This document shows, one piece after another, positions 49,185 to 64,000 of a stretch of 64,000 bases of DNA. Both the position numbers and the translations under genes were made by a program. The stretch lies in NCBI GenBank assembly GCA_902595755.1, contig CACJRF010000006.1, positions 5,911 to 69,910 of the forward strand. The letters are read 5' to 3'. This stretch comes from an uncultured Alphaproteobacteria bacterium (GTDB lineage: Bacteria > Pseudomonadota > Alphaproteobacteria > Methylaequorales > Methylaequoraceae). Under the pieces are notes generated by a model, which saw only the letters and a program-made list of their open reading frames with translations, was not told where the DNA came from and did no database searches. Numbering within the stretch: the first letter of the stretch is position 1; each line of letters begins with the position of its first letter.

Positions 49185-49976
49185 CTACATTCCAGGTAGT
49201 CTCATCAAACTTGCTCCAACAGAGTCAAGTTCTTCTGTCATTTGAATCATTTTTACGTGCATCTCGAATTTTCGTTGTTGGTCTATAGTGTTAACCATTT
49301 CTTCAACAGCATTTACATTACTTTTTTCAAGCGTGCCAGCTACTAACTTTCCCTGATTATTAGGAACTATTTCAGCAAGACTAATTTGTCCATTTTCATC
49401 GGGCTCGGTTTGTAATCTTATGTGACCATCTAGTGTTTTTTTTAATTGATCGTTCTCACCAGGAACAAAAGTAGCTATTAAAGCTGCGTTTATTGGCAAA
49501 GCATCTGGTTCAGCCCCAGTTGGTTCAATAATTATCTCGCCATTTGGTGATATGTCAATTCTTCTAAATGCTGGAAGAACGATTGGTTGAAGTCCATCAT
49601 CTAATATTTTATTTCCTGCACCATCAAGTAATTCTCCATTTTCACTAGTTTGCAAATCACCTCTTCTTGATAAAGCCGGGTTTCCACCATCCCTTGGTTC
49701 TATTAAGAAATATCCGTTTCCATCAAGTGCCACATCTAATGGGTTTCCAGTAGTTTCCATTGAACCCTGTTGGGTTGAAAAACCACCCACATTTCTAGCT
49801 GAAACGATTCTAGGTTCCACTCCGTTTTGTCTATTTAGATAAATTGAACCAAAATCTGTAACAACATCTTGACGATAACCAGGAGTGCTAAGGTTCGATA
49901 AATTATGAGAAGTGGCAGTTTGATTTTCCATTAACATTTTTAAGCTATTCAAAGCAGTTTGTGCCATTCTATCCAT
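49185..49976 (-). CDS. flgF: Flagellar proximal rod protein FlgF
   Basis: SHNLSNLSTPGY, TGNPLDVALDGNGYF, SRRGD, LEKSNVNAVEEM, QRKFEM; follows flgE. Confidence 0.9.
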   Translation of the reverse strand: MDRMAQTALNSLKMLMENQTATSHNLSNLSTPGYRQDVVTDFGSIYLNRQNGVEPRIVSARNVGGFSTQQGSMETTGNPLDVALDGNGYFLIEPRDGGNPALSRRGDLQTSENGELLDGAGNKILDDGLQPIVLPAFRRIDISPNGEIIIEPTGAEPDALPINAALIATFVPGENDQLKKTLDGHIRLQTEPDENGQISLAEIVPNNQGKLVAGTLEKSNVNAVEEMVNTIDQQRKFEMHVKMIQMTEELDSVGASLMRLPGM

Positions 49977-50005
49977 AATTTATCTCCTAATAAATTTTAC
50001 AAAAA

Positions 50006-53000
50006 TTACATTCTAATATTAACAATGGACTGAGTTGTTGCAGCAGTTGTTTCAATTGATTTAGCGTTTGCCTGAAAGTTTCTTTGCGCTGTAATTAAAT
50101 TTACAAGCTCTTCAGTAATATCAACATTTGATCTTTCAAGTGAACCTGAAAGAACAGTACCAAAACCCTCTGCACCAGCTTCACCAACCGTTGCAGTTCC
50201 TGATACAGCTGTTTCAACATAGGTAGCATTACCGATTTGTTTTAAACCATTTTGGTTGTTAAAGTTCGCTAGAACAATTTTTCCCAATGGGTTATTTTGT
50301 CCATTTGTATAGTTGGCTCTAACTGTTCCTGATGCATCAATTTCTAGACCATCTAATCGTCCTGATGTAAAACCATCCTGATTCACAGTTGATACAAAGA
50401 AAGGTTGTGCAAGCTGTGTGGACTTAGTGAAATCGATATCTAGATCGATACTAAACCCCGCTTCTTGTTTCTCATAATGTACGCCCTGTTTAGGACTTAC
50501 AATACTACCGGATTTATCGAATGTTAATTCACCCTCATCAATGTACAAAGGAAAATATCCATCTACTAGGTTTGCTGGAGGTGTAGTTACTTTGTTGCCA
50601 TCTGCGTCCACAAAAAGATTAAGTCCTTCTGCGTTAGTTGCTTGTATTAGATTATAAATTTGTGGAACTGAACCCACACCTAAATCAACGTTATCGAGAC
50701 CAAACTTAGAGGCCCCTCTAACTTTAATAGTTGAATCCTTACCTGTTGTACCATTAGTGAATGTAAAACTGTTCGTATCAGAATTATATTTTACTGTGAT
50801 ACCACCACCCACAGTTCCAGATTCATCTTCAATTTGGTTGATTCTTTCTTGAAGAGCTTCTGCAAGTGTTGTTCCTACATAAAAACCTTGTGGTATTTCA
50901 ATTACTCCTGCCACACCATTAACTGATACGTTGAAAATGTTTTCATTTCCTAGATTTGATAACCTAAACACTTGTGTAAGATCCTCGGTAGCAGATGCCC
51001 CAACTGCTTGAGCGGGTTGAGCTGCTAAACCTTTTGCATCAGTTGTAATGGCATTAGTTTTAGTCACACCAATGCCTAAAAGGTTATTATCTCCTGAGAA
51101 AAAATCTGTACTATCAGTTACCGATCCATCAGTAGTAGATAGTAAGTATCTACCAACTACAATACTCGAAGCAGTTTGAGCTTCGGTAACTCCAATTGCT
51201 CCATTAGCGGCGATAGTTTCACCTGTAGTCCCGCTACTAAATTCAAAGGCTTTTAACTCACTATTATATCCAACTTTAACCCCAAATCGTTTGTCGTTAA
51301 GCTGAATTTCAGCACCATCAGCTACAAAAGTTCCTGCCGAAAATTTAACACCACCTCTAATGAGTGTTTCTGGAGTATCATCAGCTGTAGGAATACCTAA
51401 ATTATTCTCTGATGTTGCAGTTGTAGAACCAAAAATTTTAAAACTATTGAAATTACTATTTGTTCCTGTACCTATTAAGTTTCTATCAACCTCAAACTGA
51501 AGTCTTTGATTTAATACATCATAACTAACCTCTATCGGTGGATCTTTTTCATCTACCCAATGAGTGGCTGGTATCGTTTGATCATCAGTAGTTCCATCTC
51601 CATTCAGATATGTGTCTCTGGTGTTAGCATTTGTGTTTTCTCCTAGTCCAGTTAACTCGTAGGTATCTAATGTTGTGCCTGCCGATGTTTCAGTATCAGT
51701 AAGTGTGAATACTTCTACAAGATCATCAATAATATTTTTTGCAGCGCCCTCAGCAGTTGTTTTTGTAACCATGTCTGCATTGGTATAGTCGTGTTTTGTT
51801 GTAGATCCAATTTCTCTAATAACAATCTTTGAACTACTAAAATTTACTGGTGCTCCGGAGTAAACATTTTGTGCTCCTTCAAAAAATGCTTCAACAGCTG
51901 TCGATTGTTCTGAGTATATGTTAGCCGAGTCATTTGCATCGGCTACAGATAAAGAAAAATCAGAATCTGGAAAATTTAAACCTGCTGTACTTGCTTCTAC
52001 ATAATAATAGGTATTACCACCTGAAGTTTCAGTGCCAGTAGTTGAAATAGTAAATTCACGTCCATTTACAAAATCAGCATTCGCATTTTGCGTTGTGTCT
52101 GAATAAAATTTACCAATAAAACGTACTTTTTCGTTAGCAGTAAGAGCTGGGTCTGTTGTCCCAAAATAAAATCTTACAGTATTTTCTGATTGATCAAATT
52201 CAACTGCAGTTGTACTTGCGTTATCTCCTAACGAATCCATTTCATCATAAACATGAAGTTCAGGACTTTTTCCATAGTAGGAATAGGTAAGATGTCTTCC
52301 TGTTGAAAGAGAACCGTTTGCAGTAAGGTTTGCTGCTGTGTTTGATGTTGCGCTTGAACCATCATCAGCTGTTCTGTGATTAAAAGTAAAAGCTTGACTT
52401 TGGTCAAGTATCGTAGATATAGATTTACCAGAGGCCCTATAAAATAAACTATCTCCAACACCTAAAGCTGTAGCACTATTTACTGCGTCAGTAGATGGAG
52501 TTACTGCATATTCATTGAGAGCAGCATTTAGTCGAGCCTGAGCATGAGCTAGAAACTGTTCTCTTGTAAAATCAGGCGATGCCCCAGTTAATACTATTCC
52601 CTCTAAATTAGAGACATAAGAATCACTCAACAAGTCAACAGACACAGGTGTGGTCAGGCCTGTTGAAGTTCCATCTGCATTTAATTTTAGCAAATCAATA
52701 GTCAATGTGTCATCAACGTTTTGAACAATCTGAATTTTCTTATCATCACCATATGCAGAATTAATAGCTCTTTGAATCTCGGTTGATAATTGAGCAGCAT
52801 TATAAGAACCTGGTCTTATATCAATATTTACTGGTTGGTCACTATTATCAACATTAATAGTCATAAAATTTGTACCCCAATAAATACTTGAAGATGTATC
52901 TCCACTTTCTCTAGTTGAATTAAATTTCATTGGATCTGTAACAACAGTCACAGTTTTATCACCCTCTTCACCAAAATCGAAAGCACTAGATTCACCAGTT

Positions 53001-53902
53001 ACTTTTGCTGGTGTTGAATCAATTAATGTTTGTAAATCATCTAATTTATAAAGTGCTGATCCTTTACCTTCCAAGAAATAGTTATCATCAGGAACAGATG
53101 TAGTTTGCTGACCGAAACGGTCAATAAAGATTGGCTGTTGAGTATCTGTTACTGAACGAACCAAATCTGGATCAATTACAGTGTCGTTAATTACCAATCT
53201 TGTTTCAAACTTATTCGTAGGGTCGTCAGCTGATGCTGCTTGTGTTCGAATAAAAAATATGGTTGCAATCGTTGGGTTACCTAAATCATCAAAGATCGTG
53301 ATTGAAGTTGAATTATTGTAAGTGGTTGGATCATTAGGATCAAAGACATAACCATTTTCAAATTGTGGTTTATCAGTAATAATTTCACTTGTAGCAGATA
53401 CGTTTACACCCAGCTCAATTGATGTTGTCGCCTTTGGTGTTCCTGAAGTTACTGGAAGTTGCAGTGGTACAGCACTGACTAAGTCTTTTGCTGTTACTGA
53501 ACCATCCTCGTTCACTGGAAAAGTAAGCAAAAACTGTCCAGATGAATCAGTAACATATCTATCATTATTAACGTTAAATGAGCCATTCCTTGTATAAACT
53601 GTTTGACCAGATGTCAATGATGGTTTTAAGGAGAAAAAACCTTGTCCTGAAATCGCTACGTCTAATACGTTAAGGGATGAAGTAATGTTACCTTGAGTGA
53701 ACTGCTGTTTTACACTTTTTAGAATTGTACCAGAACCGATTGAAGATGAAGCATTTTGTAATGGAGAAGTTGCAAAAATATCACCAAATTCTGCCCTTGA
53801 TCTTTTAAAACCAGTCGTGTTAACGTTTGCAATATTGTTTGAAGTAGCCGAAATATCGGACTGCGCTCCATTTAACCCTGTTAATGCTGTATAAAATGAC
53901 AT
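50006..53902 (-). CDS. flgE: Flagellar hook protein FlgE, giant (1298 aa)
   Basis: N-terminal SNNIANVNTTGFK/DVAISGQGFF/YTRNGSF; FlaE-type YNNSTSITIFDDLG; C-terminal ANYTNGQ/LANFNN/SGSLERSNVDITEELVNLITAQRNFQANAK; lies between flgD and flgF. Confidence 0.95.
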   Translation of the reverse strand: MSFYTALTGLNGAQSDISATSNNIANVNTTGFKRSRAEFGDIFATSPLQNASSSIGSGTILKSVKQQFTQGNITSSLNVLDVAISGQGFFSLKPSLTSGQTVYTRNGSFNVNNDRYVTDSSGQFLLTFPVNEDGSVTAKDLVSAVPLQLPVTSGTPKATTSIELGVNVSATSEIITDKPQFENGYVFDPNDPTTYNNSTSITIFDDLGNPTIATIFFIRTQAASADDPTNKFETRLVINDTVIDPDLVRSVTDTQQPIFIDRFGQQTTSVPDDNYFLEGKGSALYKLDDLQTLIDSTPAKVTGESSAFDFGEEGDKTVTVVTDPMKFNSTRESGDTSSSIYWGTNFMTINVDNSDQPVNIDIRPGSYNAAQLSTEIQRAINSAYGDDKKIQIVQNVDDTLTIDLLKLNADGTSTGLTTPVSVDLLSDSYVSNLEGIVLTGASPDFTREQFLAHAQARLNAALNEYAVTPSTDAVNSATALGVGDSLFYRASGKSISTILDQSQAFTFNHRTADDGSSATSNTAANLTANGSLSTGRHLTYSYYGKSPELHVYDEMDSLGDNASTTAVEFDQSENTVRFYFGTTDPALTANEKVRFIGKFYSDTTQNANADFVNGREFTISTTGTETSGGNTYYYVEASTAGLNFPDSDFSLSVADANDSANIYSEQSTAVEAFFEGAQNVYSGAPVNFSSSKIVIREIGSTTKHDYTNADMVTKTTAEGAAKNIIDDLVEVFTLTDTETSAGTTLDTYELTGLGENTNANTRDTYLNGDGTTDDQTIPATHWVDEKDPPIEVSYDVLNQRLQFEVDRNLIGTGTNSNFNSFKIFGSTTATSENNLGIPTADDTPETLIRGGVKFSAGTFVADGAEIQLNDKRFGVKVGYNSELKAFEFSSGTTGETIAANGAIGVTEAQTASSIVVGRYLLSTTDGSVTDSTDFFSGDNNLLGIGVTKTNAITTDAKGLAAQPAQAVGASATEDLTQVFRLSNLGNENIFNVSVNGVAGVIEIPQGFYVGTTLAEALQERINQIEDESGTVGGGITVKYNSDTNSFTFTNGTTGKDSTIKVRGASKFGLDNVDLGVGSVPQIYNLIQATNAEGLNLFVDADGNKVTTPPANLVDGYFPLYIDEGELTFDKSGSIVSPKQGVHYEKQEAGFSIDLDIDFTKSTQLAQPFFVSTVNQDGFTSGRLDGLEIDASGTVRANYTNGQNNPLGKIVLANFNNQNGLKQIGNATYVETAVSGTATVGEAGAEGFGTVLSGSLERSNVDITEELVNLITAQRNFQANAKSIETTAATTQSIVNIRM

Positions 53903-53923
53903 TTTTTCTTTCTCCTTTAAGTA

Positions 53924-54628
53924 TTAATCGTTAGTTTTTAATTTTATGGCGTCATTTGCTGAAATTTCTCCATAATCTTTAGTTTCTAAAATTACGTCCT
54001 CACTATCTTTTGGAGCAGAAGCAGCAATGACTTTATTGTACACAGCTGTACTTATTCCGTCACTTGCTTGACCATTCCCTGCATAGGCTTGAATCGTAAG
54101 TCTTGTCTTATTTCTTTTGATTTCATCTGGAATATCAGTCCAACTGAAACCAACTAAACCTCTATCATTTGAACCAAGGTTCATCGTGTGAACAATTTCA
54201 CCACTTGGATTTGTAAAAGTTAAACCTACATCGTTTGAGTAACTAGGTAAATCAACAACTCCGTGAATCTCACCCTTATCATCAGGACTTACAACTTGTC
54301 CAGGGACAAGAACTGAATGTCCTAAAAATTGTGCAGCTGTAGCTACACGATTAGGTTCAAGTTTTGATCCTAAATTAGTTAAGTTACTATTAATTTCAGT
54401 AATACCTGTTACCGTTGAAAATTGAGCCATCTGCGCAATAAAATCTCCGTTATCCATTGGAGCAAATGGATCTTGATTTTGAAGTTGAGTGGTCATGAGC
54501 TTTAAAAAATCTTCCTGACCTAATTTGTTTTTATTACCTTCTTTTTTTACATCTTCTTGCGTTCTTACTCCAAGTTTATTTAGAATATTATTTAAAGATT
54601 GTTCTGATGTTTTTGAAATATCTGCCAT
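53924..54628 (-). CDS. flgD: Hook capping protein FlgD
   Basis: LGQEDFLKLMTTQLQNQDPFAPMDNGDFIAQMAQFS. Confidence 0.97.
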   Translation of the reverse strand: MADISKTSEQSLNNILNKLGVRTQEDVKKEGNKNKLGQEDFLKLMTTQLQNQDPFAPMDNGDFIAQMAQFSTVTGITEINSNLTNLGSKLEPNRVATAAQFLGHSVLVPGQVVSPDDKGEIHGVVDLPSYSNDVGLTFTNPSGEIVHTMNLGSNDRGLVGFSWTDIPDEIKRNKTRLTIQAYAGNGQASDGISTAVYNKVIAASAPKDSEDVILETKDYGEISANDAIKLKTND

Positions 54629-54639
54629 TTTTTACCCCT

Positions 54640-55053
54640 TTATTTTCCTAAACTTGCAGTTTTAAGCATTAGCGCTTTAATTGTTGAAATTACCTCTACA
54701 TTATTTTGATAATGTCTCGATGCCTCAAGCATATCCACGTATTCTTCTTCAATATTCACAGGTGCTCTATATATAAAACCATTCTCATCAGCCATAGGGT
54801 GACCAGGTTTATATTCTTTTATCGGATCTATATCCATCTTTTGAACAGTTACCGCATCAACTGTAGAAATCCCTTTTTTCCTAATTAGATCAAAATATTT
54901 TGTTTCAAATACTGGTTTTACAGGTTTGTAAGCATCATTAGGATTTGATGCAATATTATCTGCGTTGGCTAAATTACTAGCCGTAGCATTAAGCCTTACT
55001 AGCTGAGCTCCCATTGCCCTTTGTGCTATGTGATAAATATTTTTAATATCCAT
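54640..55053 (-). CDS. flgC: Rod protein FlgC
   Basis: ASNLANAD, PGHPMADENG, PVNIEEE...ASRHYQNN. Confidence 0.95.
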   Translation of the reverse strand: MDIKNIYHIAQRAMGAQLVRLNATASNLANADNIASNPNDAYKPVKPVFETKYFDLIRKKGISTVDAVTVQKMDIDPIKEYKPGHPMADENGFIYRAPVNIEEEYVDMLEASRHYQNNVEVISTIKALMLKTASLGK

Positions 55054-55442
55054 TATTCACCCCTTATCGCCCCAAGTAACCCTCTAATTTTTGAATTAAT
55101 AAAATCTAAAGTTGTTTGATATCTAATCGAGTTTTCAGCAAATTCCATCTGTTCAACTGCAAGTTCAACAGTATTTCCATCAACAGAAGGGTTAATTGAC
55201 TGACGATATTGAACTTTGCCTGGTAAATACTTAGTAGTTAATGCTATATGAGCATCACTTGATGTTTTTAGAGGTCCGTTGTTTAATGATCTTGCTAATT
55301 CCACCTCAAAGTCAACATCTCTTGCTTTAAAATTTGGTGTAGAAGCATTGGCAATGTTAGACGCAAGAATCTCATTCTTTTTGTTTCTAATGTTTAATGC
55401 ATTGCTGTACACATCAAATTGTTGTTTAATACTATTATTCAT
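55053..55442 (-). CDS. flgB: Rod protein FlgB (129 aa)
   Basis: ATG at 55442; ILASNIANASTPNFKARD, DGNTVE. The track's 285-aa version is an antisense read of the neighbouring gene. Confidence 0.95.
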   Translation of the reverse strand: MNNSIKQQFDVYSNALNIRNKKNEILASNIANASTPNFKARDVDFEVELARSLNNGPLKTSSDAHIALTTKYLPGKVQYRQSINPSVDGNTVELAVEQMEFAENSIRYQTTLDFINSKIRGLLGAIRGE

Positions 55443-55458: not shown

Positions 55459-55474
55459 TGGTTTGGAATTTGCA
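55459..55474 (+). promoter_or_regulatory. Possible second sigma54 promoter, for the 55507 ORF
   Basis: Plus strand TGGTTTGGAATTTGCA = GG-N10-GC with a perfect TTGCA but a weaker -24 element. Confidence 0.4.
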
Positions 55475-55486
55475 AATTGAATGCCA
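55471..55486 (-). promoter_or_regulatory. sigma54 (-24/-12) promoter of flgBCDEF
   Basis: Minus strand TGGCATTCAATTTGCA = GG-N10-GC, close to the TGGCAC-N5-TTGCW consensus, about 30 nt above the flgB ATG. Confidence 0.8.
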
Positions 55487-55506: not shown

Positions 55507-56448
55507 ATGAATGAAAAAAATGAGTTAAACACAAACTTAGATCCTGAAGTTGAAAAAATAAGAGACCAAATAATTTCAAAAATAGGAGATAAACCTTTAG
55601 ATGAAGTAAACCAAGTCATCAAAAAATTGCTAATGGAAAATATGGATGAAACAATGAGACTTGCTGCACTGGCGGCAAGAGTAAAGATTATTAGAGGGAA
55701 AATTTCCTTATTATATGATAATAAAATTGAAATTAATAAACCAAAAACAAAACCTGTTGAACAAAAGTCAGATGAAAAAACAAATATTAAAGAAGAGAAA
55801 TGGGTCAGAATAAAGATGCTTGAGTCTGGTGAAGTCAACGGTAAACAAATTGATAAGGATGTAATACTAGATGTTAAAGAAGAAGACTCAAAAATTCTTA
55901 TAAATGCCAAAAAAGCAGAAATAGTTATAGATAAAGCTGATAAGCCTGATCAGACGAAAAAAGCAGATATTGACCCTGAAAAAAAAGCTAGTGTAAAAAA
56001 TGATATCCAAGAGGAGGCTAAAGAAAGTAAATCTGATAAAAGTACTAATGAGGCAGAACAAAATATTGAGGATAAAAATAAAAAAGATCTTTTAGATAAG
56101 CATGAAAAGAAAGAAAAAGATGGCAAAATTGAAGATAAAATGGAAGATTCAAAAGAGTCTAAATCTGATGAGAATAAGACGGCTGAACAAGCTGCACCGT
56201 CTTCTGAGAGCAAACCATTAGAAGAGGCTAAAAGTAAAGAAGATAAACCGGCTGAACAAGCTGCACCTGCATCTGAGAGCAAACCAGTAGAAGATGCTAA
56301 AGGTGAAGAAGATAAACCGGTTGCACAAGCTATACCTTCTTCTGAGAGCAAACCAGAAGAAAAGGCTCAAGGTGAAGATAAACCGGTTGCACAAGCTACA
56401 CCTTCTTCTGAGAGCAAACCAGTAGAAGAAAATAATTCTAAAAACTAA
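55507..56448 (+). CDS. Hypothetical protein (313 aa) with a small folded domain and a Lys/Glu/Asp-rich repeat tail
   Basis: ATG at 55507 preferred because the longer ORF overlaps flgB antisense; no signal peptide or TM segment seen. Confidence 0.8.
   Translation: MNEKNELNTNLDPEVEKIRDQIISKIGDKPLDEVNQVIKKLLMENMDETMRLAALAARVKIIRGKISLLYDNKIEINKPKTKPVEQKSDEKTNIKEEKWVRIKMLESGEVNGKQIDKDVILDVKEEDSKILINAKKAEIVIDKADKPDQTKKADIDPEKKASVKNDIQEEAKESKSDKSTNEAEQNIEDKNKKDLLDKHEKKEKDGKIEDKMEDSKESKSDENKTAEQAAPSSESKPLEEAKSKEDKPAEQAAPASESKPVEDAKGEEDKPVAQAIPSSESKPEEKAQGEDKPVAQATPSSESKPVEENNSKN
56173..56430 (+). repeat. Four in-frame tandem repeats, periods 69/69/66 bp
   Basis: TCTGAGAGCAAACCA at 56203, 56272, 56341 and 56407; encodes ~23-aa units KP(A/V)(E/A)QA.PSSESKP.E. 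Confidence 0.95.
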
Positions 56449-56529: not shown

Positions 56530-56880
56530 TTGATAAAAAAAATAAAAATACTTTCAATAATATTTTGTATAATAATTTTATATGGATGCGAAGATCTTTT
56601 TCTAAGGTTTAAATATGAGACCCACGAATGTAAACCAAATCGTGTCAATTTAAATAAAATTTTTATTAAAAACTATGATCAAGGGGATGATGTAGATGTT
56701 GAAATAGGTGATTATTTACATAAGTTTAAAATTACTTATATAAGTGATGAAAAAATGTATTTAGTTGAAGAAGCAGAAGATTTTGTTATTAAAATATATA
56801 GAAAAACCAACAAAATAGAGGCGAGGGTAGATAATTTAATTCTCAATGTTCAGTGCACTAAAGAAACATTTAAAATGTAA
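56530..56880 (+). CDS. Hypothetical lipoprotein
   Basis: GAGGAG then TTG start; lipobox LYG-C at residue 20; two further Cys near the ends of a beta-rich domain. Confidence 0.7.
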   Translation: MIKKIKILSIIFCIIILYGCEDLFLRFKYETHECKPNRVNLNKIFIKNYDQGDDVDVEIGDYLHKFKITYISDEKMYLVEEAEDFVIKIYRKTNKIEARVDNLILNVQCTKETFKM

Positions 56881-57306
56881 CTAACCTTTTCCATGATATT
56901 TAATAATAGGCTCTACTTCTTCGGTAGTTAAGTTAGTAGCTTCTGATATTTCAGATATAGATTTACCTTGATTTGCCATCTGAATAGCTAGTGTAATTTT
57001 AGATTCTCCACTTGAAGAGTCAGCTAATCTTGCAATTTCTAGATCGATTTTTTCTAATGAATACTTATAATCTTGAATAGCCTTTTTTTGATCTGAAAAA
57101 AGCAGTTCGAATGCTCTAAATTCTTCAATTAAATCTTTAATAGCTCTTTCAAGCATGAATATTCTTTGAAGGTTTTGCTTATTTTTTTTATTATCAATTA
57201 AATATGCAACTAAAACTAAACATATTATAAATACTGTAAATATAAGAAAAAAAGTGAAGATTGTCCCTGAGGGATCATTTTTTATCAAATTATTAAAATA
57301 ATTCAT
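56881..57306 (-). CDS. DUF2802-like protein (TM anchor, coiled coil, C-terminal HTH-like motif)
   Basis: C-terminus LAIQMANQGKSISEISEATNLTTEEVEPII fits the DUF2802 pattern. Confidence 0.65.
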   Translation of the reverse strand: MNYFNNLIKNDPSGTIFTFFLIFTVFIICLVLVAYLIDNKKNKQNLQRIFMLERAIKDLIEEFRAFELLFSDQKKAIQDYKYSLEKIDLEIARLADSSSGESKITLAIQMANQGKSISEISEATNLTTEEVEPIIKYHGKG

Positions 57307-57343
57307 GATTGTATGTTATTATTTTATATAATTTATCTCAACT

Positions 57344-57622
57344 TTAATTAATTTTTCTATCTTTTAGATATTTCATGAAATCTGCAAAAGTTTTGTTTCT
57401 CTGTTCTTGATTTTGGTCTAGGTTTTTAATTACTTCACCTAACGTATCAACACTTTGCTTTAAATCTTTATCATCTTCGGAGTATTTATTTTCCTCTATT
57501 AAGCCCTTTAGATCTTTGATTATCAGTTCAACCTTTTCTTCCAATCTAATAACATCTTCTGTATCACTAGCTTTTTCCAGCTCTTTGAGAGCTGAGATAA
57601 GTAAATCAAGAATTTGTTTCAT
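57344..57622 (-). CDS. Small helical acidic protein in the flgN position (possible export chaperone)
   Basis: 92 aa, all-helical amphipathic pattern, 9 nt downstream of flgM; no diagnostic motif recognised. Confidence 0.45.
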   Translation of the reverse strand: MKQILDLLISALKELEKASDTEDVIRLEEKVELIIKDLKGLIEENKYSEDDKDLKQSVDTLGEVIKNLDQNQEQRNKTFADFMKYLKDRKIN

Positions 57623-57631
57623 TAAAGAAAC

Positions 57632-57946
57632 TTATTTTATTTCTTTATGGACTTGTATTAGAGCATCAGCTAGTTTTTCTAAATCAAGCGGATATGTCCC
57701 GCTAGCTATTGCAGCTTTGATTCTTGTAACAGCTGTCTTATCAATAGGTGGTTCACTTGCCATTTTTTTTACCTTTTCTTTGGAAATGAACTGCGAAACC
57801 TTTCCGTTATTGGACTCAACATCAGTGGTAAGATGACTAACTTTCGAAACCTTAGCATCCGAAACTTTATTAGTTACTGACTCGCTGGTAACCTTGTTAT
57901 TATTGAGGTCGGTTCCTAGGTTTTTTGGTTTAATTTGGTCAATCAT
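57632..57946 (-). CDS. flgM: Anti-sigma28 factor FlgM
   Basis: PPIDKTAVTRIKAAIASGTYPLDLEKLADALI. Confidence 0.9.
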   Translation of the reverse strand: MIDQIKPKNLGTDLNNNKVTSESVTNKVSDAKVSKVSHLTTDVESNNGKVSQFISKEKVKKMASEPPIDKTAVTRIKAAIASGTYPLDLEKLADALIQVHKEIK

Positions 57947-57958
57947 TTTATAATCCTT

Positions 57959-58684
57959 TTAATTATTAACGACATTAGGTTCAAATTGTTTAGGGTTAAA
58001 TACAACATTTTTTTTATTTTTTGCATAAACTTGCAATATTTTACCACTTTTTATATTTTTAACAATCAATCTATCCATAAAATTCGCATTTTCCATAGCA
58101 ATTCCAGATTCTCTGATAGTTATGTTGCCTTTATTGTTGATTATTGTAACTACAGTATTCTTTTCTATTAACCAATCATTTAGTAAGTCGTTATATTGTA
58201 GTGAAATACTTTTATTCATATTTCTTTTAAGCTTTTTGCCAACAATATCTGAATGATTTGTGATGTAGACACTCTGACCTACTAATTTTTTATTAACCTC
58301 AGTTAAATGTTCTTTTGTTAAGATTGTACCATTTTTGAGGTTTCTTTTTAAAGCAAAGGTTTTAACCGTTTTTTTTCTTTTATCTGTGACTTTTCTTTCT
58401 TTTTTGTTTCTTAAGATTATTCGCCATGGATTTTTATCTACACATTTAATTTTAATCAAATTATAATTACCAGAAATATCGCTTATAATCATCTTAGATT
58501 TCTCACAAAAGGGATACTTTAGTTCGTCCAAAATCTTTACGTTCGGTAATTGATTTTGTTCTTGAAGCCAACTATTGACAATAGTTTTTAGTTCTATTCC
58601 ACTTATAGTATTTGAAAGTAAATTATTTGTACTCAAAGAACTAAAAGTAAAAGTAAGTAATATTATTTTAAAAATTATTTTCAT
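57959..58684 (-). CDS. flgA: P-ring assembly chaperone FlgA
   Basis: Signal peptide; SAF-like ALKRNLKNGTIL; C-terminal GIAMENANFMDRLIVKNIKSGKILQV; upstream of flgM. Confidence 0.85.
   Translation of the reverse strand: MKIIFKIILLTFTFSSLSTNNLLSNTISGIELKTIVNSWLQEQNQLPNVKILDELKYPFCEKSKMIISDISGNYNLIKIKCVDKNPWRIILRNKKERKVTDKRKKTVKTFALKRNLKNGTILTKEHLTEVNKKLVGQSVYITNHSDIVGKKLKRNMNKSISLQYNDLLNDWLIEKNTVVTIINNKGNITIRESGIAMENANFMDRLIVKNIKSGKILQVYAKNKKNVVFNPKQFEPNVVNN
57966..57992 (-). promoter_or_regulatory. Putative sigma28 promoter for flgM inside the flgA 3' end
   Basis: Minus strand TAAA-N15-GTCGTTAA versus consensus TAAA-N15-GCCGATAA. Confidence 0.6.
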
Positions 58685-58687
58685 ATA

Positions 58688-59119: not shown

Positions 59120-59128
59120 TTCACATTC

Positions 59129-60310: not shown

Positions 60311-60315
60311 AAAAC

Positions 60316-60831
60316 CTATAATGTTTGGGCACTTCTAAATAAATATGCAACCATATCTTGATCGATCTCAAGAACTGTTTCATAAGTATCAGAGCCTGTT
60401 GGATTAATTCTGACAGTCCTGGCCCCTCTAATTACGCCAGAAACAACACCACGAAAAGTATCATTTTGTACCATTAAATCAATAACAGTAGTATTACTAT
60501 CAACTTTAAGACCATGAATTTGTTCAGCTAAATCTCTCATTGCTGACATACGCGCAGATCTAATTGCCATCAACCTTTTTTGCTCAATACTTTGACCAGG
60601 TTGACTTGATACCACTGCATAACCAGTAGCAGTTAGGGTTGGAAAATTAATGGAGGCCCCGTCCAGAAGGTCTCTTGTTTTATTAAGTTGACTTGTTGGA
60701 GCTGAATAATCAAATTCATCTGCTGTTTGACCTGCTTGCTTATTTGCTAAATTTCCTCTCATATTGTCTAGAAAATTTGAAGAACATGATTGTATAAACA
60801 GTGCAGTAAAAATAATTAAAATATATTTCAT
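60316..60831 (-). CDS. flgP: Flagellar outer-membrane lipoprotein FlgP (LPP20 family)
   Basis: Lipobox IQS-C; LTATGYA...RLMAIRSAR...RDLAEQIHGLKV...VSGVIRGA. Confidence 0.85.
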   Translation of the reverse strand: MKYILIIFTALFIQSCSSNFLDNMRGNLANKQAGQTADEFDYSAPTSQLNKTRDLLDGASINFPTLTATGYAVVSSQPGQSIEQKRLMAIRSARMSAMRDLAEQIHGLKVDSNTTVIDLMVQNDTFRGVVSGVIRGARTVRINPTGSDTYETVLEIDQDMVAYLFRSAQTL

Positions 60832-60864: not shown

Positions 60865-60880
60865 TGCATAAATTATGCCA
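60865..60880 (-). promoter_or_regulatory. sigma54 promoter of the flgP-flgT-LysM-flgA-flgM operon
   Basis: Minus strand TGGCATAATTTATGCA (GG-N10-GC). Confidence 0.75.
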
Positions 60881-60892: not shown

Positions 60893-60912
60893 ATAACTGA
60901 ATCACTAGTTAT
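60893..60912. promoter_or_regulatory. Inverted repeat containing a GANTC site, between two divergent sigma54 promoters
   Basis: ATAACT-GAATCACT-AGTTAT; GAATC at 60899-60903. Confidence 0.4.
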
Positions 60913-60915
60913 AGG

Positions 60916-60931
60916 TGGCATATTCCTTGCA
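60916..60931 (+). promoter_or_regulatory. sigma54 promoter of the flhA-flhF operon
   Basis: Plus strand TGGCATATTCCTTGCA (GG-N10-GC). Confidence 0.8.
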
Positions 60932-61029
60932 TCTACATAACATATGAGTTTAAAAAAAAGAAAAAGCGTGTTTTCCGTGGGTTTTAAAAGTCATTTTTTT
61001 GACAATTTTCATAACTGTAAAGGTTTTTT

Positions 61030-63177
61030 ATGGATCTAGTGCTAAAATCATTCCAATCACAAAGCTTAATTAGTTTTGTAAGAACATTTAGTATACCAAT
61101 CGGTATAATGATCCTTGTGGCTATGATGGTAATTCCATTAAGTCCTTGGATGCTAGATATTTTATTCACCACTAATATTTTAGTTTCATTACTGGTATTG
61201 ATGGTTGCTTTACAAACTTTCAAGCCTCTTGATTTTTCTAGTTTTCCAACTGTATTACTATTTGCTACGGTTTTAAGATTAGGATTAAATGTCGCGTCAA
61301 CAAGAGTGATATTAGGTTCTGGACATAATGGAACAGATTCAGCAGGTAGTATAATTGAAGCTTTTGGTGCGTTTGTTATGTCAGGTAGCTATGCAGTAGG
61401 CTTATTCGTTTTTACAATATTAGTAATCATCAACCTAATAGTTATAACAAAAGGGGCTGGAAGAGTATCTGAAGTAGCGGCTAGGTTTACTTTAGACGCT
61501 ATGCCTGGGAAACAAATGGCAATTGATGCTGATCTAAATGCAGGTGTTATTTCTAGTGAAGATGCTAAAGAAAGGAGAGCAGAAATAGCAAAAGAGGGCG
61601 AATTTTATGGTGCAATGGATGGTGCTGCAAAATTTGTAAAAGGTGACGCTATAGCTGGTATTTTGATACTGGTGATTAATATAATAGGTGGTTTGGTTAT
61701 AGGAACTACTCAACATGATCTTTCTTTATCTGATTCTGCAGAATCATATATACTACTAACCGTTGGAGATGGGCTAGTCGCACAAATTCCTTCATTGCTT
61801 TTAGCAATGGCAACAGCAACAATTGTAACTAGAATATCTTCAGATAAGGATGATCTGGCTGGACAAATCTCTTCCCAGATGGGTTTGTCAAAAGCATGGG
61901 TGCCAGTTTCTGCAGTTTTATTATTATTTGGACTAGTTCCGGGTATGCCCAATACTTTATTTATAGCAGGATCAATATTTTCTGGAATAATAGCATGGTT
62001 TACCTCAAAAAATAGAGAAATCAATCTTAAAGATAAAGAGTTAAAAAATGAGGAACAAGATGATTCGGATGCAATTGGAAAAATTGATATTGATGATGTA
62101 TCTGATAACGCATCTATATCACTTGATTTAGGTTATGGGTTAATTTCTATGGTGGATTCAAATGACAAAAAGTCAGCTGGTCCACTAATATCAAAAATTA
62201 CTGGTATCAGAAAACAAGTTTCTAAGGATTTAGGTTTTATTATACCTAATGTCAGAGTAAAAGACGATTTATCATTAGATTCTAATTCATATAGAATTAG
62301 AGTTGGTCATACTATTGTTGCACAAGATAAAGTTTATGTTGATAGAAAACTTGCAATGCCAAGTGATGAAACTCAGTTAAAGATACAAGGAATACAAGTT
62401 GAGGATCCAACTTTTGGTTTGGAATCATTTTGGATCGAGCAACATTTGGTCTCAAAAGCTGAAGCCAATCACTACATGATAATAGAACCTGAGGCAGTAA
62501 TAGCTACTCATCTTAACAATGTTCTTCTTAGGTATTCAGGAGATTTAATTAGTCAGGATGATGTTCAATCACTTTTGGATAATCTTAGTAAATCTAATCC
62601 TCAACTTGTTCAATCAGTTGTTCCAAAATTAGTACCACTTCACCATTTAACAATTATCCTTAGAAACCTTCTTACCGAGAGGGTTCCAATAAATGACTTA
62701 AAAAAAATCTTAGAGGCATTAACTAATCTTTCAGAAAAAAAACTTAGTCCTGAAGAATTGTCTGAGGCCGTAAGGCCAGCAATATCATCTTTATTAATTC
62801 AAAAGATTTCTAATATTAACGAGTCATTGAATGTCGTTACTTTCAACCCAGAATTTGAACAGATGCTTATTGCGATGTCAAAGAAAAGTGGTTCTGAGGG
62901 AATTTTAATTGATCCAGAACTTGCTAAACAAATGATCAACTCTCTAATTGAGGTTGGGGAAAAGTTTACAATGGATGGTCAACCGTTGGTAATTGTCACT
63001 TCGCCAATAATAAGGAAAGATATAGCTATTTTACTTCGTCAACATATAGAGGATTTAGTTGTACTTTCATTTACAGAATTACCAGAAAATAAAAAGGTAA
63101 AAGTTGTATCTACTATTGGAGAAAAAATAAATAATAATTCACAAAAGGAGAAATCTAATGAAAACACAACTGTTTAA
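61030..63177 (+). CDS. flhA: Flagellar export gate protein FlhA
   Basis: DFSSFPTVLLFATVLRLGLNVASTR, RFTLDAMPGKQMAIDADL, FYGAMDGA, LTVGDGLV. Confidence 0.98.
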   Translation: MDLVLKSFQSQSLISFVRTFSIPIGIMILVAMMVIPLSPWMLDILFTTNILVSLLVLMVALQTFKPLDFSSFPTVLLFATVLRLGLNVASTRVILGSGHNGTDSAGSIIEAFGAFVMSGSYAVGLFVFTILVIINLIVITKGAGRVSEVAARFTLDAMPGKQMAIDADLNAGVISSEDAKERRAEIAKEGEFYGAMDGAAKFVKGDAIAGILILVINIIGGLVIGTTQHDLSLSDSAESYILLTVGDGLVAQIPSLLLAMATATIVTRISSDKDDLAGQISSQMGLSKAWVPVSAVLLLFGLVPGMPNTLFIAGSIFSGIIAWFTSKNREINLKDKELKNEEQDDSDAIGKIDIDDVSDNASISLDLGYGLISMVDSNDKKSAGPLISKITGIRKQVSKDLGFIIPNVRVKDDLSLDSNSYRIRVGHTIVAQDKVYVDRKLAMPSDETQLKIQGIQVEDPTFGLESFWIEQHLVSKAEANHYMIIEPEAVIATHLNNVLLRYSGDLISQDDVQSLLDNLSKSNPQLVQSVVPKLVPLHHLTIILRNLLTERVPINDLKKILEALTNLSEKKLSPEELSEAVRPAISSLLIQKISNINESLNVVTFNPEFEQMLIAMSKKSGSEGILIDPELAKQMINSLIEVGEKFTMDGQPLVIVTSPIIRKDIAILLRQHIEDLVVLSFTELPENKKVKVVSTIGEKINNNSQKEKSNENTTV

Positions 63178-64000
63178 AGCAAAAGATATGAAATCAGCTA
63201 TAAACCTAGTTAATAATCAATTTGGTGAGAATGCTGTGATTTTATCGACTCGAAAAAACAATGGTATAGTTGAGGTTGAGGCATCTGACAGTGATGATGC
63301 TATTCATAACCATAAAGAAAAATTAAAAGAGAAAGAAAGTTTTTCTAAAGTTTTCATGAAGGAAATAAAAAACGAGAATGATAATATTTCATTTATTGAT
63401 AAAGGAAATAAGGAAAATTTTGTCAATAAGAAAAGAGATGATGTCTACGAAAAGATTAAAAATGAAATTACATCTTTAAGAGATGATTTGAGTAGAATGG
63501 TTCTTACAGACCAGACTGGAATATCTGACGAACTGTCCTATCTTACACCAATCAAACTTAGACAAGAAAAATTTCTACCTGAATTAATAAATCAACTAAG
63601 CTATTCATTCATTGGAAAAAACTCTGAAGATGGAAGAATCTCTTTTTTTAGAGAATTATCTAGAAAACTCTCTTCAGATGATATTTCAAGAATGGTAAAC
63701 GCCAGAAATATATTTATATTTGGAAATTCTGGCTCAGGAAAATCTACTTTATCAGCAAAAATTGCTTCATTTTTATCTGATAAAAAATCCACTAAAGAAA
63801 TTAATTTCATTGATGTATCAGGTTCTGGTACAACGCATTCAGATATTTTACGATCTTACAGTAGAGTTTTGGGATTTCCAATAAAAGATCACAAATATTT
63901 CGATTTCAATGAAAGTCAAACTACCGAAAGCTCAAAAATAAATATTTTTGATTTTTCTGGGGACCTAAATTTTAGTCTACAAAAAATTAAAGAGATAAAA
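63158..64000 (+). CDS. flhF: FlhF SRP-type GTPase homologue, 3' truncated by window edge (not in ORF track)
   Basis: AAGGAG then ATG at 63158; MKTQLFKAKDMKSAINLV...FGENAVILSTRK N-terminus; P-loop GNSGSGKST; frame open to base 64000; directly follows flhA. Confidence 0.85.
   Translation, partial: MKTQLFKAKDMKSAINLVNNQFGENAVILSTRKNNGIVEVEASDSDDAIHNHKEKLKEKESFSKVFMKEIKNENDNISFIDKGNKENFVNKKRDDVYEKIKNEITSLRDDLSRMVLTDQTGISDELSYLTPIKLRQEKFLPELINQLSYSFIGKNSEDGRISFFRELSRKLSSDDISRMVNARNIFIFGNSGSGKSTLSAKIASFLSDKKSTKEINFIDVSGSGTTHSDILRSYSRVLGFPIKDHKYFDFNESQTTESSKINIFDFSGDLNFSLQKIKEIK

What the first reader, a model, noticed from the sequence alone, without database searches (positions are those of the whole stretch)
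49185..64000. Gamma-type, sigma54/sigma28-controlled flagellar system in a streamlined AT-rich alphaproteobacterium
Seen: flgBCDEF, flgP-flgT-X-flgA-flgM and flhA-flhF with GG-N10-GC promoters, sitting beside an alphaproteobacterial core. Established: FlgT/FlgP, FlhF, FlgM and sigma54 control typify Vibrio/Pseudomonas-type polar flagella and the horizontally acquired Fla1 system of Rhodobacter sphaeroides, not the native Caulobacter/rhizobial system; streamlined Pelagibacter ubique is non-flagellated and lacks sigma54. Inference: an old, ameliorated, laterally acquired polar flagellum with several unassigned accessory genes, in a lineage that would otherwise be presumed non-motile.
Basis: partly seen in the sequence, partly recalled or inferred. 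Interest (0 to 1): 0.75.

Follow-up and report, generated by a model that had tools for sequence, protein, structure and literature searches.

The report
Chemotaxis-less Fla1-type flagellum in TMED127
An abundant, tiny-genome open-ocean bacterium (order TMED127/Methylaequorales) carries a complete, strongly conserved flagellum of the gamma-like "Fla1" kind with a three-fold oversized hook protein, yet no relative searched has any chemotaxis gene, so these supposedly passive plankton probably swim without steering.

Summary
Window 49185-64000 holds flgFEDCB, flgP-flgT-LysM-flgA-flgM(-2 more), and flhA-flhF. Perfect sigma-54 promoters sit before flgB, flgP and flhA.

- **Host:** an alphaproteobacterium of order TMED127/Methylaequorales (genus TMED13-like), not SAR11.
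- **No chimera:** gene order and flanks are identical in a single-cell genome and a long-read MAG.
- **Missing genes:** fliH-R, flhB and motAB fall in an assembly gap. A same-genus genome has fleT-fliE...R-flhB in one array.
- **Spread:** FlhA is in 32 of 37 family genomes across 14 genera, with dN/dS of 0.06 or less and host-like GC3.
- **Type:** it matches Rhodobacter sphaeroides Fla1. It has a FleQ (no N-domain) plus FleT (no HTH) pair, FlgT, FlgP, a giant FlgK and a rod-binding-only FlgJ. It adds FlhF/FlhG and a PomA-like stator.
- **Origin:** a five-protein tree puts it, with relatives from PS1/Parvibaculales-labelled lineages, beside gamma polar flagella (98/97). An AU test does not reject an alphaproteobacterial-side placement (p 0.29-0.55), so lateral origin stays unproven.
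- **New here:** CheW, MCP and PilZ domains are each absent from 41 of 41 family genomes, and there is no CheY. FlgE is 1298 aa.

The parts
49185..49976 (-). flgF (proximal rod), last gene of flgBCDEF
   Evidence: Pfam Flg_bbr_C and LlgE_F_G_D1; best E. coli match is FlgF
50006..53902 (-). flgE, giant hook protein of 1298 aa. D0/D1/D2 ends flank an insert of about 750 aa.
   Evidence: Pfam Flg_bb_rod, D1, FlgE_D2 and Flg_bbr_C. 935 metagenomic homologues of the insert, 1255-1547 aa long. The insert model has pLDDT above 70 over residues ~90-480 and no PDB fold match.
53924..54628 (-). flgD (hook cap)
   Evidence: Pfam FlgD, 83 bits
54640..55053 (-). flgC (rod)
   Evidence: Pfam; E. coli FlgC E 1e-24
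55053..55442 (-). flgB (rod), corrected start, 129 aa
   Evidence: Flg_bb_rod begins at aa 168 of the long ORF. An ATG follows the sigma-54 promoter.
55471..55486 (-). sigma-54 promoter of flgBCDEF (TGGCATTCAATTTGCA)
   Evidence: Exact consensus match
55507..56448 (+). Unassigned 313-aa protein: conserved three-helix module, small beta module and an acidic repeat tail
   Evidence: No Pfam, NCBIfam or PDB hit. 124 homologues, all unnamed. Conserved at this position in TMED127 and in the PS1-like MAG L004. The model gave no significant fold match.
56530..56880 (+). Unassigned 116-aa lipoprotein (lipobox LYGC)
   Evidence: Read from the sequence; conserved in G015, L003 and L004; no family hit
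56881..57306 (-). DUF2802-like protein, last gene of the flgP operon
   Evidence: Pfam DUF2802 at 26.9 bits, below the 33.5 cut-off; conserved in relatives
57344..57622 (-). Unassigned 92-aa protein in the position of flgN
   Evidence: No family hit. The FlgN role is inferred from position only.
57632..57946 (-). flgM (anti-sigma-28)
   Evidence: Pfam FlgM, 40 bits against a cut-off of 25
57959..58684 (-). flgA (P-ring chaperone)
   Evidence: Pfam ChapFlgA, 66.6 bits
58688..59119 (-).
   Evidence: Weak LysM hit; FimV_core E 1e-6, below cut-off; conserved in L004
59129..60310 (-). flgT (H-ring protein)
   Evidence: Pfam FlgT_N at 37.6 bits against a cut-off of 28.8; no PDB sequence hit
60316..60831 (-). 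flgP (outer-membrane lipoprotein, basal disk)
   Evidence: Pfam LPP20; solved FlgP 8z5n E 5.7e-16
60865..60880 (-). sigma-54 promoter of flgP-flgT-...-DUF2802 (TGGCATAATTTATGCA)
   Evidence: invariant in 12 family genomes
60916..60931 (+). sigma-54 promoter of flhA-flhF-flhG-fliA (TGGCATATTCCTTGCA)
   Evidence: invariant in 12 family genomes
60944..61039 (+). Short upstream ORF (31 codons). It starts 12 nt after the -12 element and ends over the flhA start. It contains the conserved palindrome GTCA-N6-TGAC at 60990-61003.
   Evidence: The ATG at +11/12 and an open frame of at least 24 codons recur in 11 of the 12 family loci. The frame ends within 2 nt of the flhA ATG or runs past it.
61030..63177 (+). 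flhA (export gate)
   Evidence: FHIPEP, 771 bits; dN/dS 0.04-0.06 against relatives
63158..64000 (+). flhF, 5' part (375 aa in full). flhG, fliA, a 133-aa ORF and a second flgG-like gene follow beyond the window.
   Evidence: Best NCBIfam hit is FlhF, E 2e-19, below cut-off. MinD-like FlhG. FliA TIGR02479 at 208 bits, above the 189.6 cut-off.

Best explanation
The window holds about one third of the genes for a complete, functional flagellum, probably a single polar one. It is native to the whole family TMED127/Methylaequoraceae.

**Proposed regulatory cascade (inferred, following the R. sphaeroides Fla1 logic)**
- RpoN works with a DNA-binding activator that has no N-terminal regulatory domain (FleQ-like). 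Together they fire the fleT-fliE...R-flhB operon.
- FleQ plus the HTH-less FleT-like partner then fire the sigma-54 promoters of flgBCDEF, flgP-T-A-M, flhA-flhF-flhG-fliA, flgG-L and one long flagellin.
- Once the hook is complete, FlgM is exported. FliA then transcribes the short flagellins and fliS from CTAAAC-N15-GTCGTTTTA promoters.

**Predicted structure (inferred)**
- FlhF/FlhG set the place and number of flagella.
- FlgT and FlgP build an H-ring/basal disk around the LP rings.
- A PomA/PomB-like stator drives the motor.
- The hook (FlgE, 1298 aa) and the hook-filament junction (FlgK, 1789 aa) are unusually bulky.

**Control.** There is no CheA, CheW, MCP, CheY or PilZ protein, so swimming is not steered by the canonical chemotaxis pathway or by a c-di-GMP brake.

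**Origin.** The cluster belongs to one clade of alphaproteobacteria-hosted systems: TMED127, PS1/Parvibaculales-labelled lineages and a larger-genome group. That clade is most similar to gammaproteobacterial polar flagella. It entered, or was already in, the TMED127 stem before the 14 sampled genera diverged. Ancient transfer from a gamma-like donor is the slightly favoured origin but is not proven.

Shown here: gene content, promoters, conservation, distribution and the absence of chemotaxis genes. Inferred: the order of the cascade, polar placement, the coupling ion and actual swimming.
For: **Genes**
- Window and contig C6.
- C3 carries flgG,H,I,J,K,L, four flagellins, fliD and fliS. C21 carries fleT-like, fliE, fliF and fliG.
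- rpoN is on C28 at 411 bits.

**Completeness**
- The same-genus TMED13 MAG and long-read MAG LRMED-289 have fleT-fliEFGHIJKLMNOPQR-flhB in one array, and LRMED-289 has motAB nearby.
- FliP is in 9 of 9 relatives tested.
- The PomA-like MotA is in 30 of 41 family genomes at 85-98% identity.

**Family-wide trait under selection**
- FlhA is in 32 of 37 family genomes, in all but one without internal stops, at 73-100% identity.
- dN/dS is 0.036-0.058.
- GC3 equals that of housekeeping genes.

**No chimera**
- Gene order and both flanks (gatB, photolyase-related gene, Prx and EamA on one side; TRAP transporter and pyk on the other) are the same in LRMED-289. The SAG AG-901-J22 locus shows the same order from flgE through the TRAP/pyk flank.

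**Regulators**
- The FleQ-like protein is AAA+ plus HTH_8 with no N-terminal domain. The FleT-like protein is AAA+ without an HTH and lies directly upstream of fliE.
- This matches the published FleQ/FleT pair (PMC7277832, PMC10084136).

**Promoters**
-.

**Fla1-like traits**
- FlgK is 1789 aa with Flagellin_IN motifs, against FlgK1 of 1363 aa in R. sphaeroides (PMC7277832).
- FlgJ is rod-binding-only, and an SLT-domain gene sits behind a sigma-54-like promoter.

**No chemotaxis**
- CheW domain 0 of 41 and MCPsignal 0 of 41.
- Only five response regulators per genome in six genomes, none single-domain.
- PilZ 0 of 41.
- The controls and two larger-genome relatives do score in these searches.

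**Phylogeny**
-.
Against: - No expression or microscopy evidence.
- G000 itself lacks fliH-R, flhB and motAB in its 87.5%-complete assembly, so its own completeness is inferred from relatives.
- rpoN and the fleQ/fleT-fliEFG pieces lie on small contigs of 3.3 and 6 kb. Their membership in the bin rests on composition and on synteny in relatives.
- FliM keeps an N-terminal LSSEEVNALM motif, which resembles the CheY-binding peptide. That is unexpected if nothing binds there.
- FlhF and DUF2802 score below their curated cut-offs.
- The sigma-28 motif rests on three sites.
- The coupling ion cannot be read from sequence.
- AU tests leave the origin open.
Confidence: 0.8

Rival explanations
1. One reading: the cluster was acquired laterally from a gammaproteobacterium and is foreign to Alphaproteobacteria.
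For: - FlhA is 40-47% identical to gamma/beta FlhA against 34-40% to typical alphaproteobacterial FlhA.
- In the careful five-protein tree, the clade groups with gamma polar flagella, apart from beta/enteric, at 98/97. Gamma+beta form one side of a branch in only 2% of bootstrap trees.
- The fliE-R-flhB and flhA-flhF-flhG-fliA orders match Vibrio/Pseudomonas.
- FlgT is otherwise reported from Vibrio, Aeromonas, Pseudoalteromonas and Rhodobacteraceae (PMC7277832).
Against: - AU tests do not reject trees with all alphaproteobacterial systems on one side: p 0.29, 0.55 and 0.54. In two of the three tests the constrained tree had the higher likelihood.
- The trees have no outgroup.
- The typical alphaproteobacterial group sits on a very long branch (about 0.9-1.2), so identity values mislead.
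- The clade is not nested inside any sampled gamma family.
- FleQ/FleT, the single-domain FlgJ and the missing FlrBC/FleSR kinase pair are unlike Vibrio and Pseudomonas.
Confidence: 0.5
2. The Fla1/TMED127-type system is an old alphaproteobacterial, or ancestral proteobacterial, flagellum. A few lineages kept it. The Caulobacter/rhizobial type is a fast-evolving derived form that lost FlhF/G, FliA/FlgM and FlgT/P.
For: - The constrained 'all alpha together' tree is as likely as the free tree.
- The alphaproteobacteria-hosted systems form one clade at 100/100 that spans several families and more than one order.
- TMED127 is reported as a deep-branching order (PMC12542740).
- Composition is fully host-like.
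Against: - The best careful tree favours gamma affinity.
- The type is rare and patchy in Alphaproteobacteria: about 7 of 197 FlhA-bearing genomes in a 301-genome class sample, and 16 of 58 genomes in the order of one relative.
- Vertical descent would therefore need many losses, or two systems in the ancestor.
Confidence: 0.3
3. The apparatus is not a swimming organelle. It would be a secretion, adhesion or sensing device that no longer needs chemotaxis genes.
For: - No chemotaxis, CheY or PilZ genes in 41 genomes.
- A very unusual hook and hook-filament junction.
- Streamlined oligotrophs are usually non-motile (my own knowledge).
Against: - Filament genes (four flagellins), the cap gene fliD, fliS, the full rod, rings and hook, and the switch genes fliG/M/N are all present.
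- The stator protein is the most conserved of the parts compared, at 85-98% identity, which points to selection on torque generation.
Confidence: 0.1
4. Binning or assembly chimera, or a recent insertion at about 49 kb.
For: GC rises to 0.36-0.37 over flgE.
Against: - Same order and flanks in a long-read MAG of another genus, and the same order with one shared flank in a single-cell genome.
- Housekeeping genes lie on both sides within one 79-kb contig.
- GC3 is 0.19 against 0.20 for housekeeping genes.
- The cluster is present across 14 genera.
Confidence: 0.01

Closest known systems
Fla1 flagellar system of Rhodobacter (Cereibacter) sphaeroides
   Same: - Sigma-54 control by a FleQ plus FleT pair, with fleT as the first gene of the fliE... 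operon and no histidine-kinase tier.
- FliA/FlgM as the last regulatory tier.
- A flgBCDEF operon.
- FlgT (H-ring) and FlgP (basal disk).
- A giant FlgK with Flagellin_IN motifs.
- A FlgJ without a muramidase domain, plus a separate SLT-type lytic transglycosylase.
- The host is an alphaproteobacterium.
   Different: - FlgE is 1298 aa here, against 423 aa in Fla1.
- FlhF/FlhG are present.
- The stator scores best as PomA/PomB-like. Fla1 uses H+ MotAB together with MotF.
- The FleT-like protein has an N-terminal extension of about 125 aa.
- There are no chemotaxis genes at all. R. sphaeroides has several che operons that stop the motor.
- No second, Fla2-like flagellar set exists.
- Direct sequence grouping with Fla1 proteins could not be tested. 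No R. sphaeroides sequence was available.
Vibrio/Pseudomonas polar flagellum (RpoN then FliA hierarchy)
   Same: - Sigma-54 followed by sigma-28 tiers.
- One flagellin on a sigma-54 promoter and the others on sigma-28-like promoters.
- FlhF/FlhG.
- The orders fliE-R-flhB and flhA-flhF-flhG-fliA.
- FlgT/FlgP.
- A PomA-like stator.
- DUF2802.
   Different: - No FlrA/FleQ N-terminal domain.
- No FlrBC/FleSR two-component tier.
- flhA is uncoupled from flhB and has its own promoter.
- FlgJ is single-domain.
- No cheY-cheZ-cheA genes follow fliA. A 133-aa unassigned ORF sits there instead.
- MotX/MotY were not examined.
Native alphaproteobacterial flagellum (Caulobacter/rhizobial type, R. sphaeroides Fla2)
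   Same: The host class, the single-domain FlgJ and the use of sigma-54 activators in some species.
   Different: - FlhA, FlhB, FliP, FliQ and FliR are separated from that group by the longest internal branch of the tree (100/100).
- That type lacks FliA/FlgM, FlhF/FlhG and FlgT/FlgP.
Large FlgE hook proteins of Campylobacter/Helicobacter (about 700-850 aa; my own knowledge)
   Same: Extra surface domains are inserted between the conserved D0/D1/D2 ends of FlgE.
   Different: The insert here is about 750 aa and gives a 1255-1547-aa protein. It has no detectable sequence or fold similarity to solved structures.

Membership tests
Fla1-type flagellar system (R. sphaeroides) | Two sigma-54 activators: FleQ with an HTH and FleT without one, with fleT at the head of the fliE operon | tested here: met
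   - C21 3836-5011(-) has AAA+ and lid domains, no HTH, and lies directly upstream of fliE.
- The divergent gene has an AAA+ domain from aa 7. Full-length copies in relatives carry HTH_8.
-; PMC7277832, PMC10084136.
Fla1-type flagellar system (R. sphaeroides) | FlgT (H-ring) and FlgP (basal disk) | tested here: met
   FlgT_N is above its Pfam cut-off. FlgP matches the solved FlgP structure at E 6e-16.
Fla1-type flagellar system (R. sphaeroides) | Oversized FlgK with Flagellin_IN motifs (bulky HAP region) | tested here: met
   FlgK is 1789 aa with FlgK_D1, Flagellin_IN and Flg_bbr_C domains.
Fla1-type flagellar system (R. sphaeroides) | Motor controlled by CheY proteins from che operons | tested here: not met
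   CheW 0 of 41 and MCP 0 of 41 genomes. No single-domain response regulator in six genomes.
Fla1-type flagellar system (R. sphaeroides) | MotF and H+-driven MotAB | tested here: inconclusive
   The stator scores best as PomA (270 bits, below the 341 cut-off) and as a MotB-family protein (264 bits, above the 259 cut-off). MotF was not searched for because no reference sequence was available.
Fla1-type flagellar system (R. sphaeroides) | Proteins group phylogenetically with Fla1 proteins | not testable with these tools
   No named R. sphaeroides sequence could be fetched. The clade of alphaproteobacteria-hosted systems is monophyletic at 100/100.
Vibrio/Pseudomonas polar flagellum | FlhF and FlhG next to flhA and fliA | tested here: met
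   The order is flhA-flhF-flhG(MinD-like)-fliA. FlhF scores below its curated cut-off.
Vibrio/Pseudomonas polar flagellum | Master regulator with a FleQ N-domain, plus a FlrBC/FleSR kinase and response-regulator tier | tested here: not met
   The activators have no FleQ or receiver domain. The only receiver-AAA+ proteins are the NtrC/NtrX-like pair on C5.
Vibrio/Pseudomonas polar flagellum | Dual-domain FlgJ (rod-binding plus muramidase) | tested here: not met
   FlgJ is 107 aa with a Rod-binding domain only.
Vibrio/Pseudomonas polar flagellum | Sigma-54 promoters before early and middle operons, sigma-28 before late genes | tested here: met
   Sigma-54 sites. The sigma-28-like motif rests on three sites only.
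Native alphaproteobacterial flagellum (Caulobacter/rhizobial type) | Export-gate proteins group with those of typical Alphaproteobacteria | tested here: not met
   The typical group is a separate clade at 100/100, and TMED127 lies outside it. A sister relationship is not excluded.

The most novel reading that the evidence does not exclude
The TMED127/PS1-type cluster is a distinct, chemotaxis-independent class of flagellum. Its marks are:
- a kinase-less FleQ/FleT pair;
- FlhF/FlhG;
- an H-ring;
- a 1300-1550-aa hook protein and a 1800-aa junction protein;
- its own accessory proteins.

Streamlined marine Alphaproteobacteria share it and keep it although they have discarded every known steering input. 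It would serve unsteered or speed-modulated swimming, such as raising nutrient encounter or reaching particles. It may also be the ancestral alphaproteobacterial flagellum rather than a gamma import.
Probability: 0.3. Interest if true: 0.8.

Novelty: new variant of a known kind. Interest (0 to 1): 0.6.

Why it matters
TMED127/Methylaequorales reaches several percent of surface-ocean metagenomic reads, and the one dedicated paper does not mention motility (PMC12542740). Genome-streamlined oligotrophs are generally taken to be non-motile. Here a 1.3-Mb genome spends well over 40 kb on a flagellum that is kept under strong purifying selection across the family.

None of the 41 family genomes searched has CheA, CheW or an MCP. 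The 11 flagellated genomes tested from PS1-like lineages have no CheW-domain protein either. That raises a testable question: what is unsteered swimming for in the oligotrophic ocean?

The finding also bears on three other points.
- **Where Fla1 came from.** The R. sphaeroides 'foster' flagellum may have come from a pool of alphaproteobacteria-hosted systems rather than directly from a gammaproteobacterium.
- **A new hook to study.** It is a natural giant-hook, giant-junction variant suited to structural work.
- **A compact sigma-54 regulon.** It comprises glnB-glnA plus the flagellar operons, with start codons at the transcript start.

Tried and rejected
- **E. coli queries:** they missed motAB and much of the fli set in G000. 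The cause is an assembly gap (C21 ends after fliG), not absence.
- **Wrong-strand ORFs:** my first Pfam scan of 55950-56351(-) used the wrong strand. The real gene is 55507-56448(+).
- **FlhA-only and quick trees:** the starred placements proved unreliable. The constrained tree had equal or higher likelihood, so I do not claim a donor.
- **Naming the allied lineages:** Names came only from NCBI labels of FlhA homologues: PS1 clade, Parvibaculales and Rhodobiaceae. The identity of family f146 (G333, G185) was not established.
- **FlgE insert model:** mean pLDDT 62, with residues ~90-480 confident. No PDB fold match at E <= 0.001.
- **Model of the 313-aa protein's conserved part:** pLDDT 66. Best hit E 0.016 (GINS-like helical plus beta architecture, TM 0.22), which is not significant.
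- **The 133-aa ORF after fliA:** it sits where cheY lies in Pseudomonas. It has no receiver-domain or PilZ hit and does not look like CheY.
- **FlgT:** no PDB sequence match.
- **Window-only promoter count:** the statistic for the sigma-54 motif with one mismatch is weak (4 observed against 1.6 expected; 8 of 100 shuffles reach 4). The argument rests on placement, genome-wide rarity and conservation.

Full report
**1. What is in the window**

Six-frame ORFs were scanned against Pfam, NCBIfam and PDB sequences.

On the minus strand lie flgF, flgE, flgD, flgC and flgB (49185-55442). A second minus-strand operon spans 56881-60831: flgP, flgT, a 143-aa LysM/FimV-core-like gene, flgA, flgM, a 92-aa ORF and a DUF2802-like gene. 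On the plus strand, flhA (61030-63177) is followed by flhF.

The contig continues past the window with the rest of flhF, a MinD-like flhG, fliA (TIGR02479, 208 bits), a 133-aa ORF and a second flgG-like gene. A TRAP transporter and pyruvate kinase come next.

Reading the sequence directly gave two corrections.
- flgB starts at 55442 and is 129 aa.
- Two plus-strand genes were missed: a 313-aa protein (55507-56448) and a 116-aa lipoprotein (56530-56880).

**2. Promoters**

TGGCAY-N5-TTGCA sites stand 25-100 nt before flgB, flgP and flhA.

Genome-wide, the exact motif occurs five times, against about 0.5 expected from base composition (my arithmetic). The five sites are before flgB, flhA, flgG and the long flagellin, and before glnB-glnA, the textbook sigma-54 operon. 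One-mismatch versions precede flgP, the second flgG-like gene, the fleT-like gene and an SLT-domain gene.

Across 12 family genomes the flgP/flhA intergenic region is otherwise unalignable. The two promoters and one palindrome are its invariant blocks.

A sigma-28-like motif, CTAAAC-N15-GTCGTTTTA, precedes two short flagellin genes and fliS. Its -10 word occurs only six times in the genome. That evidence is thin.

**3. Host and integrity**

The genome is 1.30 Mb with 29% GC, 87.5% completeness and 0.05% contamination.

The window's left 47 kb carries topA, dnaB, aspS, gatAB, lptD, pyrC, purF and fabF. AspS is 92% identical to the MAG 'Pelagibacteraceae bacterium TMED13' and about 60% identical to diverse Alphaproteobacteria, SAR11 included. 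TMED13 is a genus of the order TMED127/Methylaequorales, which has a single family. These are methanol-oxidising surface-ocean bacteria, and their describing paper does not mention flagella or motility (PMC12542740).

The cluster and both flanks are collinear in the long-read MAG LRMED-289, which belongs to another genus. The single-cell genome AG-901-J22 shows the same order from flgE through the TRAP/pyk flank. GC3 is 0.193 in flagellar genes and 0.202 in housekeeping genes. A chimera or a recent insertion is excluded.

**4. The rest of the flagellum**

E. coli queries found the following elsewhere in the genome.
- On C3: flgG, H, I, a 107-aa rod-binding-only flgJ, a 1789-aa flgK with Flagellin_IN motifs, flgL, four flagellins, fliD and fliS.
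- On the 6-kb contig C21: fliE, fliF and fliG, after which the contig ends.

rpoN is on C28. fliH-R, flhB and motAB are missing from this assembly only.
- The same-genus TMED13 MAG and LRMED-289 carry fleT-fliEFGHIJKLMNOPQR-flhB as one array.
- FliP is in 9 of 9 relatives tested.
- A PomA-like MotA is in 30 of 41 family genomes at 85-98% identity.

FlhA is in 32 of 37 family genomes across 14 genera, in all but one without internal stops. Three of the five genomes without FlhA still have MotA. FlhA dN/dS is 0.036-0.058, with dS saturated. There is one FlhA per genome, so no second flagellar set exists.

**5. Regulators and type**

C21 encodes two sigma-54 activators.
- One is 392 aa. It has a GAFTGA AAA+ core and lid but no HTH, and it lies immediately upstream of and co-directional with fliE.
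- The other is divergent. Its AAA+ core starts at residue 7. Full-length copies in relatives end in a Fis-type HTH.

This is the FleQ/FleT arrangement described only for R. sphaeroides Fla1, where FleQ fires fleT-fliEFGHIJ and FleQ/FleT fire the remaining operons (PMC7277832, PMC10084136).

Other shared Fla1 traits:
- the flgBCDEF operon;
- FlgT and FlgP;
- the giant FlgK (1363 aa in Fla1);
- a FlgJ without a muramidase domain;
- a separate SLT gene.

Differences from Fla1:
- FlhF/FlhG are present;
- the stator is PomA-like;
- FlgE is three times larger;
- no che genes exist.

Differences from Vibrio and Pseudomonas:
- no FleQ N-terminal domain;
- no FlrBC/FleSR tier;
- a single-domain FlgJ;
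- flhA is separated from flhB;
- nothing che-like follows fliA.

**6. Phylogeny and origin**

FlhA is 40-47% identical to gamma/beta proteins. It is 34-40% identical to those of about 190 other alphaproteobacterial genomes. It is 51-57% identical to those of five other alphaproteobacterial families with 2.0-2.5-Mb genomes.

FlhA homologues about 74% identical to one of those relatives carry NCBI labels PS1 clade, Parvibaculales or Rhodobiaceae. A MAG labelled Rhodobiaceae has the same cluster order, including the four unassigned genes. In that relative's order only 16 of 58 genomes have the gene.

A careful LG+C20 tree was built from FlhA, FlhB, FliP, FliQ and FliR (36 taxa, 1670 columns). It gives:
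- a typical alphaproteobacterial clade at 100/100 on a branch of length 0.86;
- a clade of alphaproteobacteria-hosted systems (TMED127, the PS1-like group and two larger genomes) at 100/100;
- that second clade grouped with gamma polar flagella, apart from beta/enteric systems, at 98/97.

However, AU tests do not reject keeping all alphaproteobacterial systems on one side. The p values are 0.29, 0.55 for 51 taxa and 0.54 for FlhA alone. In two of these tests the constrained tree was the more likely one. The trees are unrooted.

I conclude that the system is gamma-like in type and very old in this lineage. Its lateral origin is plausible but not shown.

**7. No steering**

- The CheW domain (which covers CheA, CheW and CheV) is in 0 of 41 family genomes.
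- MCPsignal is in 0 of 41.
- Six genomes, five of them more than 90% complete, have at most five response regulators each. Three are about 230 aa and two are NtrC/NtrX-like. None is single-domain.
- PilZ is in 0 of 41.

The same searches score in the control genomes and in the two larger-genome relatives. The 11 PS1-like genomes tested that carry this flagellar type also lack CheW domains.

So this cluster type goes with loss of the whole chemotaxis pathway across several lineages. One loose end remains. FliM keeps an N-terminal LSSEEVNALM, which resembles the CheY-binding LSQAEIDALL of E. coli, and it is identical in two genera.

**8. Giant hook and unassigned genes**

FlgE has normal D0/D1/D2 ends and an insert of about 750 aa. 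Homologues of the insert number 935. They are 1255-1547 aa long and all come from marine data. The AlphaFold model is confident over about 390 beta-rich residues but matches no solved fold.

The 313-aa protein has a conserved helical module, a small beta module and a variable acidic tail. It has 124 unnamed homologues and no significant fold match.

**9. Verdict**

It is a new variant of a known kind: a Fla1/gamma-like flagellum. What is worth following up is a universally flagellated, chemotaxis-less, streamlined ocean clade with a giant hook.

Noticed in passing
window 60944-61039 (+), palindrome 60990-61003: A short ORF of 24-31 codons starts at an ATG 11-12 nt after the -12 element of the flhA sigma-54 promoter, which would make it leaderless. 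It ends at or over the flhA start codon. It is open in 11 of the 12 family loci, and 8 share a [GS]Q.FD motif that coincides with the conserved GTCA-N6-TGAC palindrome. It could be a micro-protein, a translational-coupling device or a protein-binding site.
   Followed up: partly
G000 contigs C10 16087-16102, C6 72886, C28 970 (outside the window): Several sigma-54 promoters have the start codon 10-14 nt after the -12 GC: glnB, the second flgG-like gene and the SLT gene. This implies leaderless mRNAs. The genome's perfect-match sigma-54 regulon appears to be only glnB-glnA plus the flagellar operons.
   Followed up: partly
G000 C28 979-1608 (+) (locus L215): An SLT-domain lytic transglycosylase of 210 aa with a signal peptide sits behind a sigma-54-like promoter. 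It lies next to an M23 peptidase and is convergent with rpoN. It is a likely SltF-type partner of the muramidase-less FlgJ.
   Followed up: partly
G000 C3 43095-48461 (+) (locus L213 9095-14461): FlgK is 1789 aa with Flagellin_IN motifs. That is even larger than the 1363-aa FlgK1 responsible for the bulky HAP region of R. sphaeroides Fla1.
   Followed up: partly
G000 C3 50392-57066: There are four flagellin genes. Three are short (about 250-260 aa), and at least two of these have a sigma-28-like promoter. One is long (515 aa) and sits behind a perfect sigma-54 promoter. This parallels the flaA versus flaB-E split in Vibrio.
   Followed up: partly
L183 10245-11234 and L179 12358-13350 (FliM of TMED13 and LRMED-289): The FliM N-terminus keeps a CheY-binding-like peptide (LSSEEVNALM) although no CheY, CheA, CheW or MCP exists in the family.
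   Followed up: partly
window 56180-56448 (+): The 3' end of the 313-aa gene is made of imperfect repeats of about 60 nt that encode KP.EQAAPSSESKPVEE-like units. Copy number and tail length vary widely among homologues (261-354 aa among close relatives).
   Followed up: no
L001 2773-3174 (+), just past the window end on the same contig: A conserved 133-aa beta-rich ORF occupies the slot after fliA, where cheY lies in Pseudomonas and Vibrio. It has no receiver, PilZ or other family hit.
   Followed up: partly
locus L193 (G278, an alphaproteobacterium of another family): Its FlhA groups with a betaproteobacterial (Thiomonas) FlhA rather than with either alphaproteobacterial group. This may be a separate flagellar gene transfer.
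   Followed up: no
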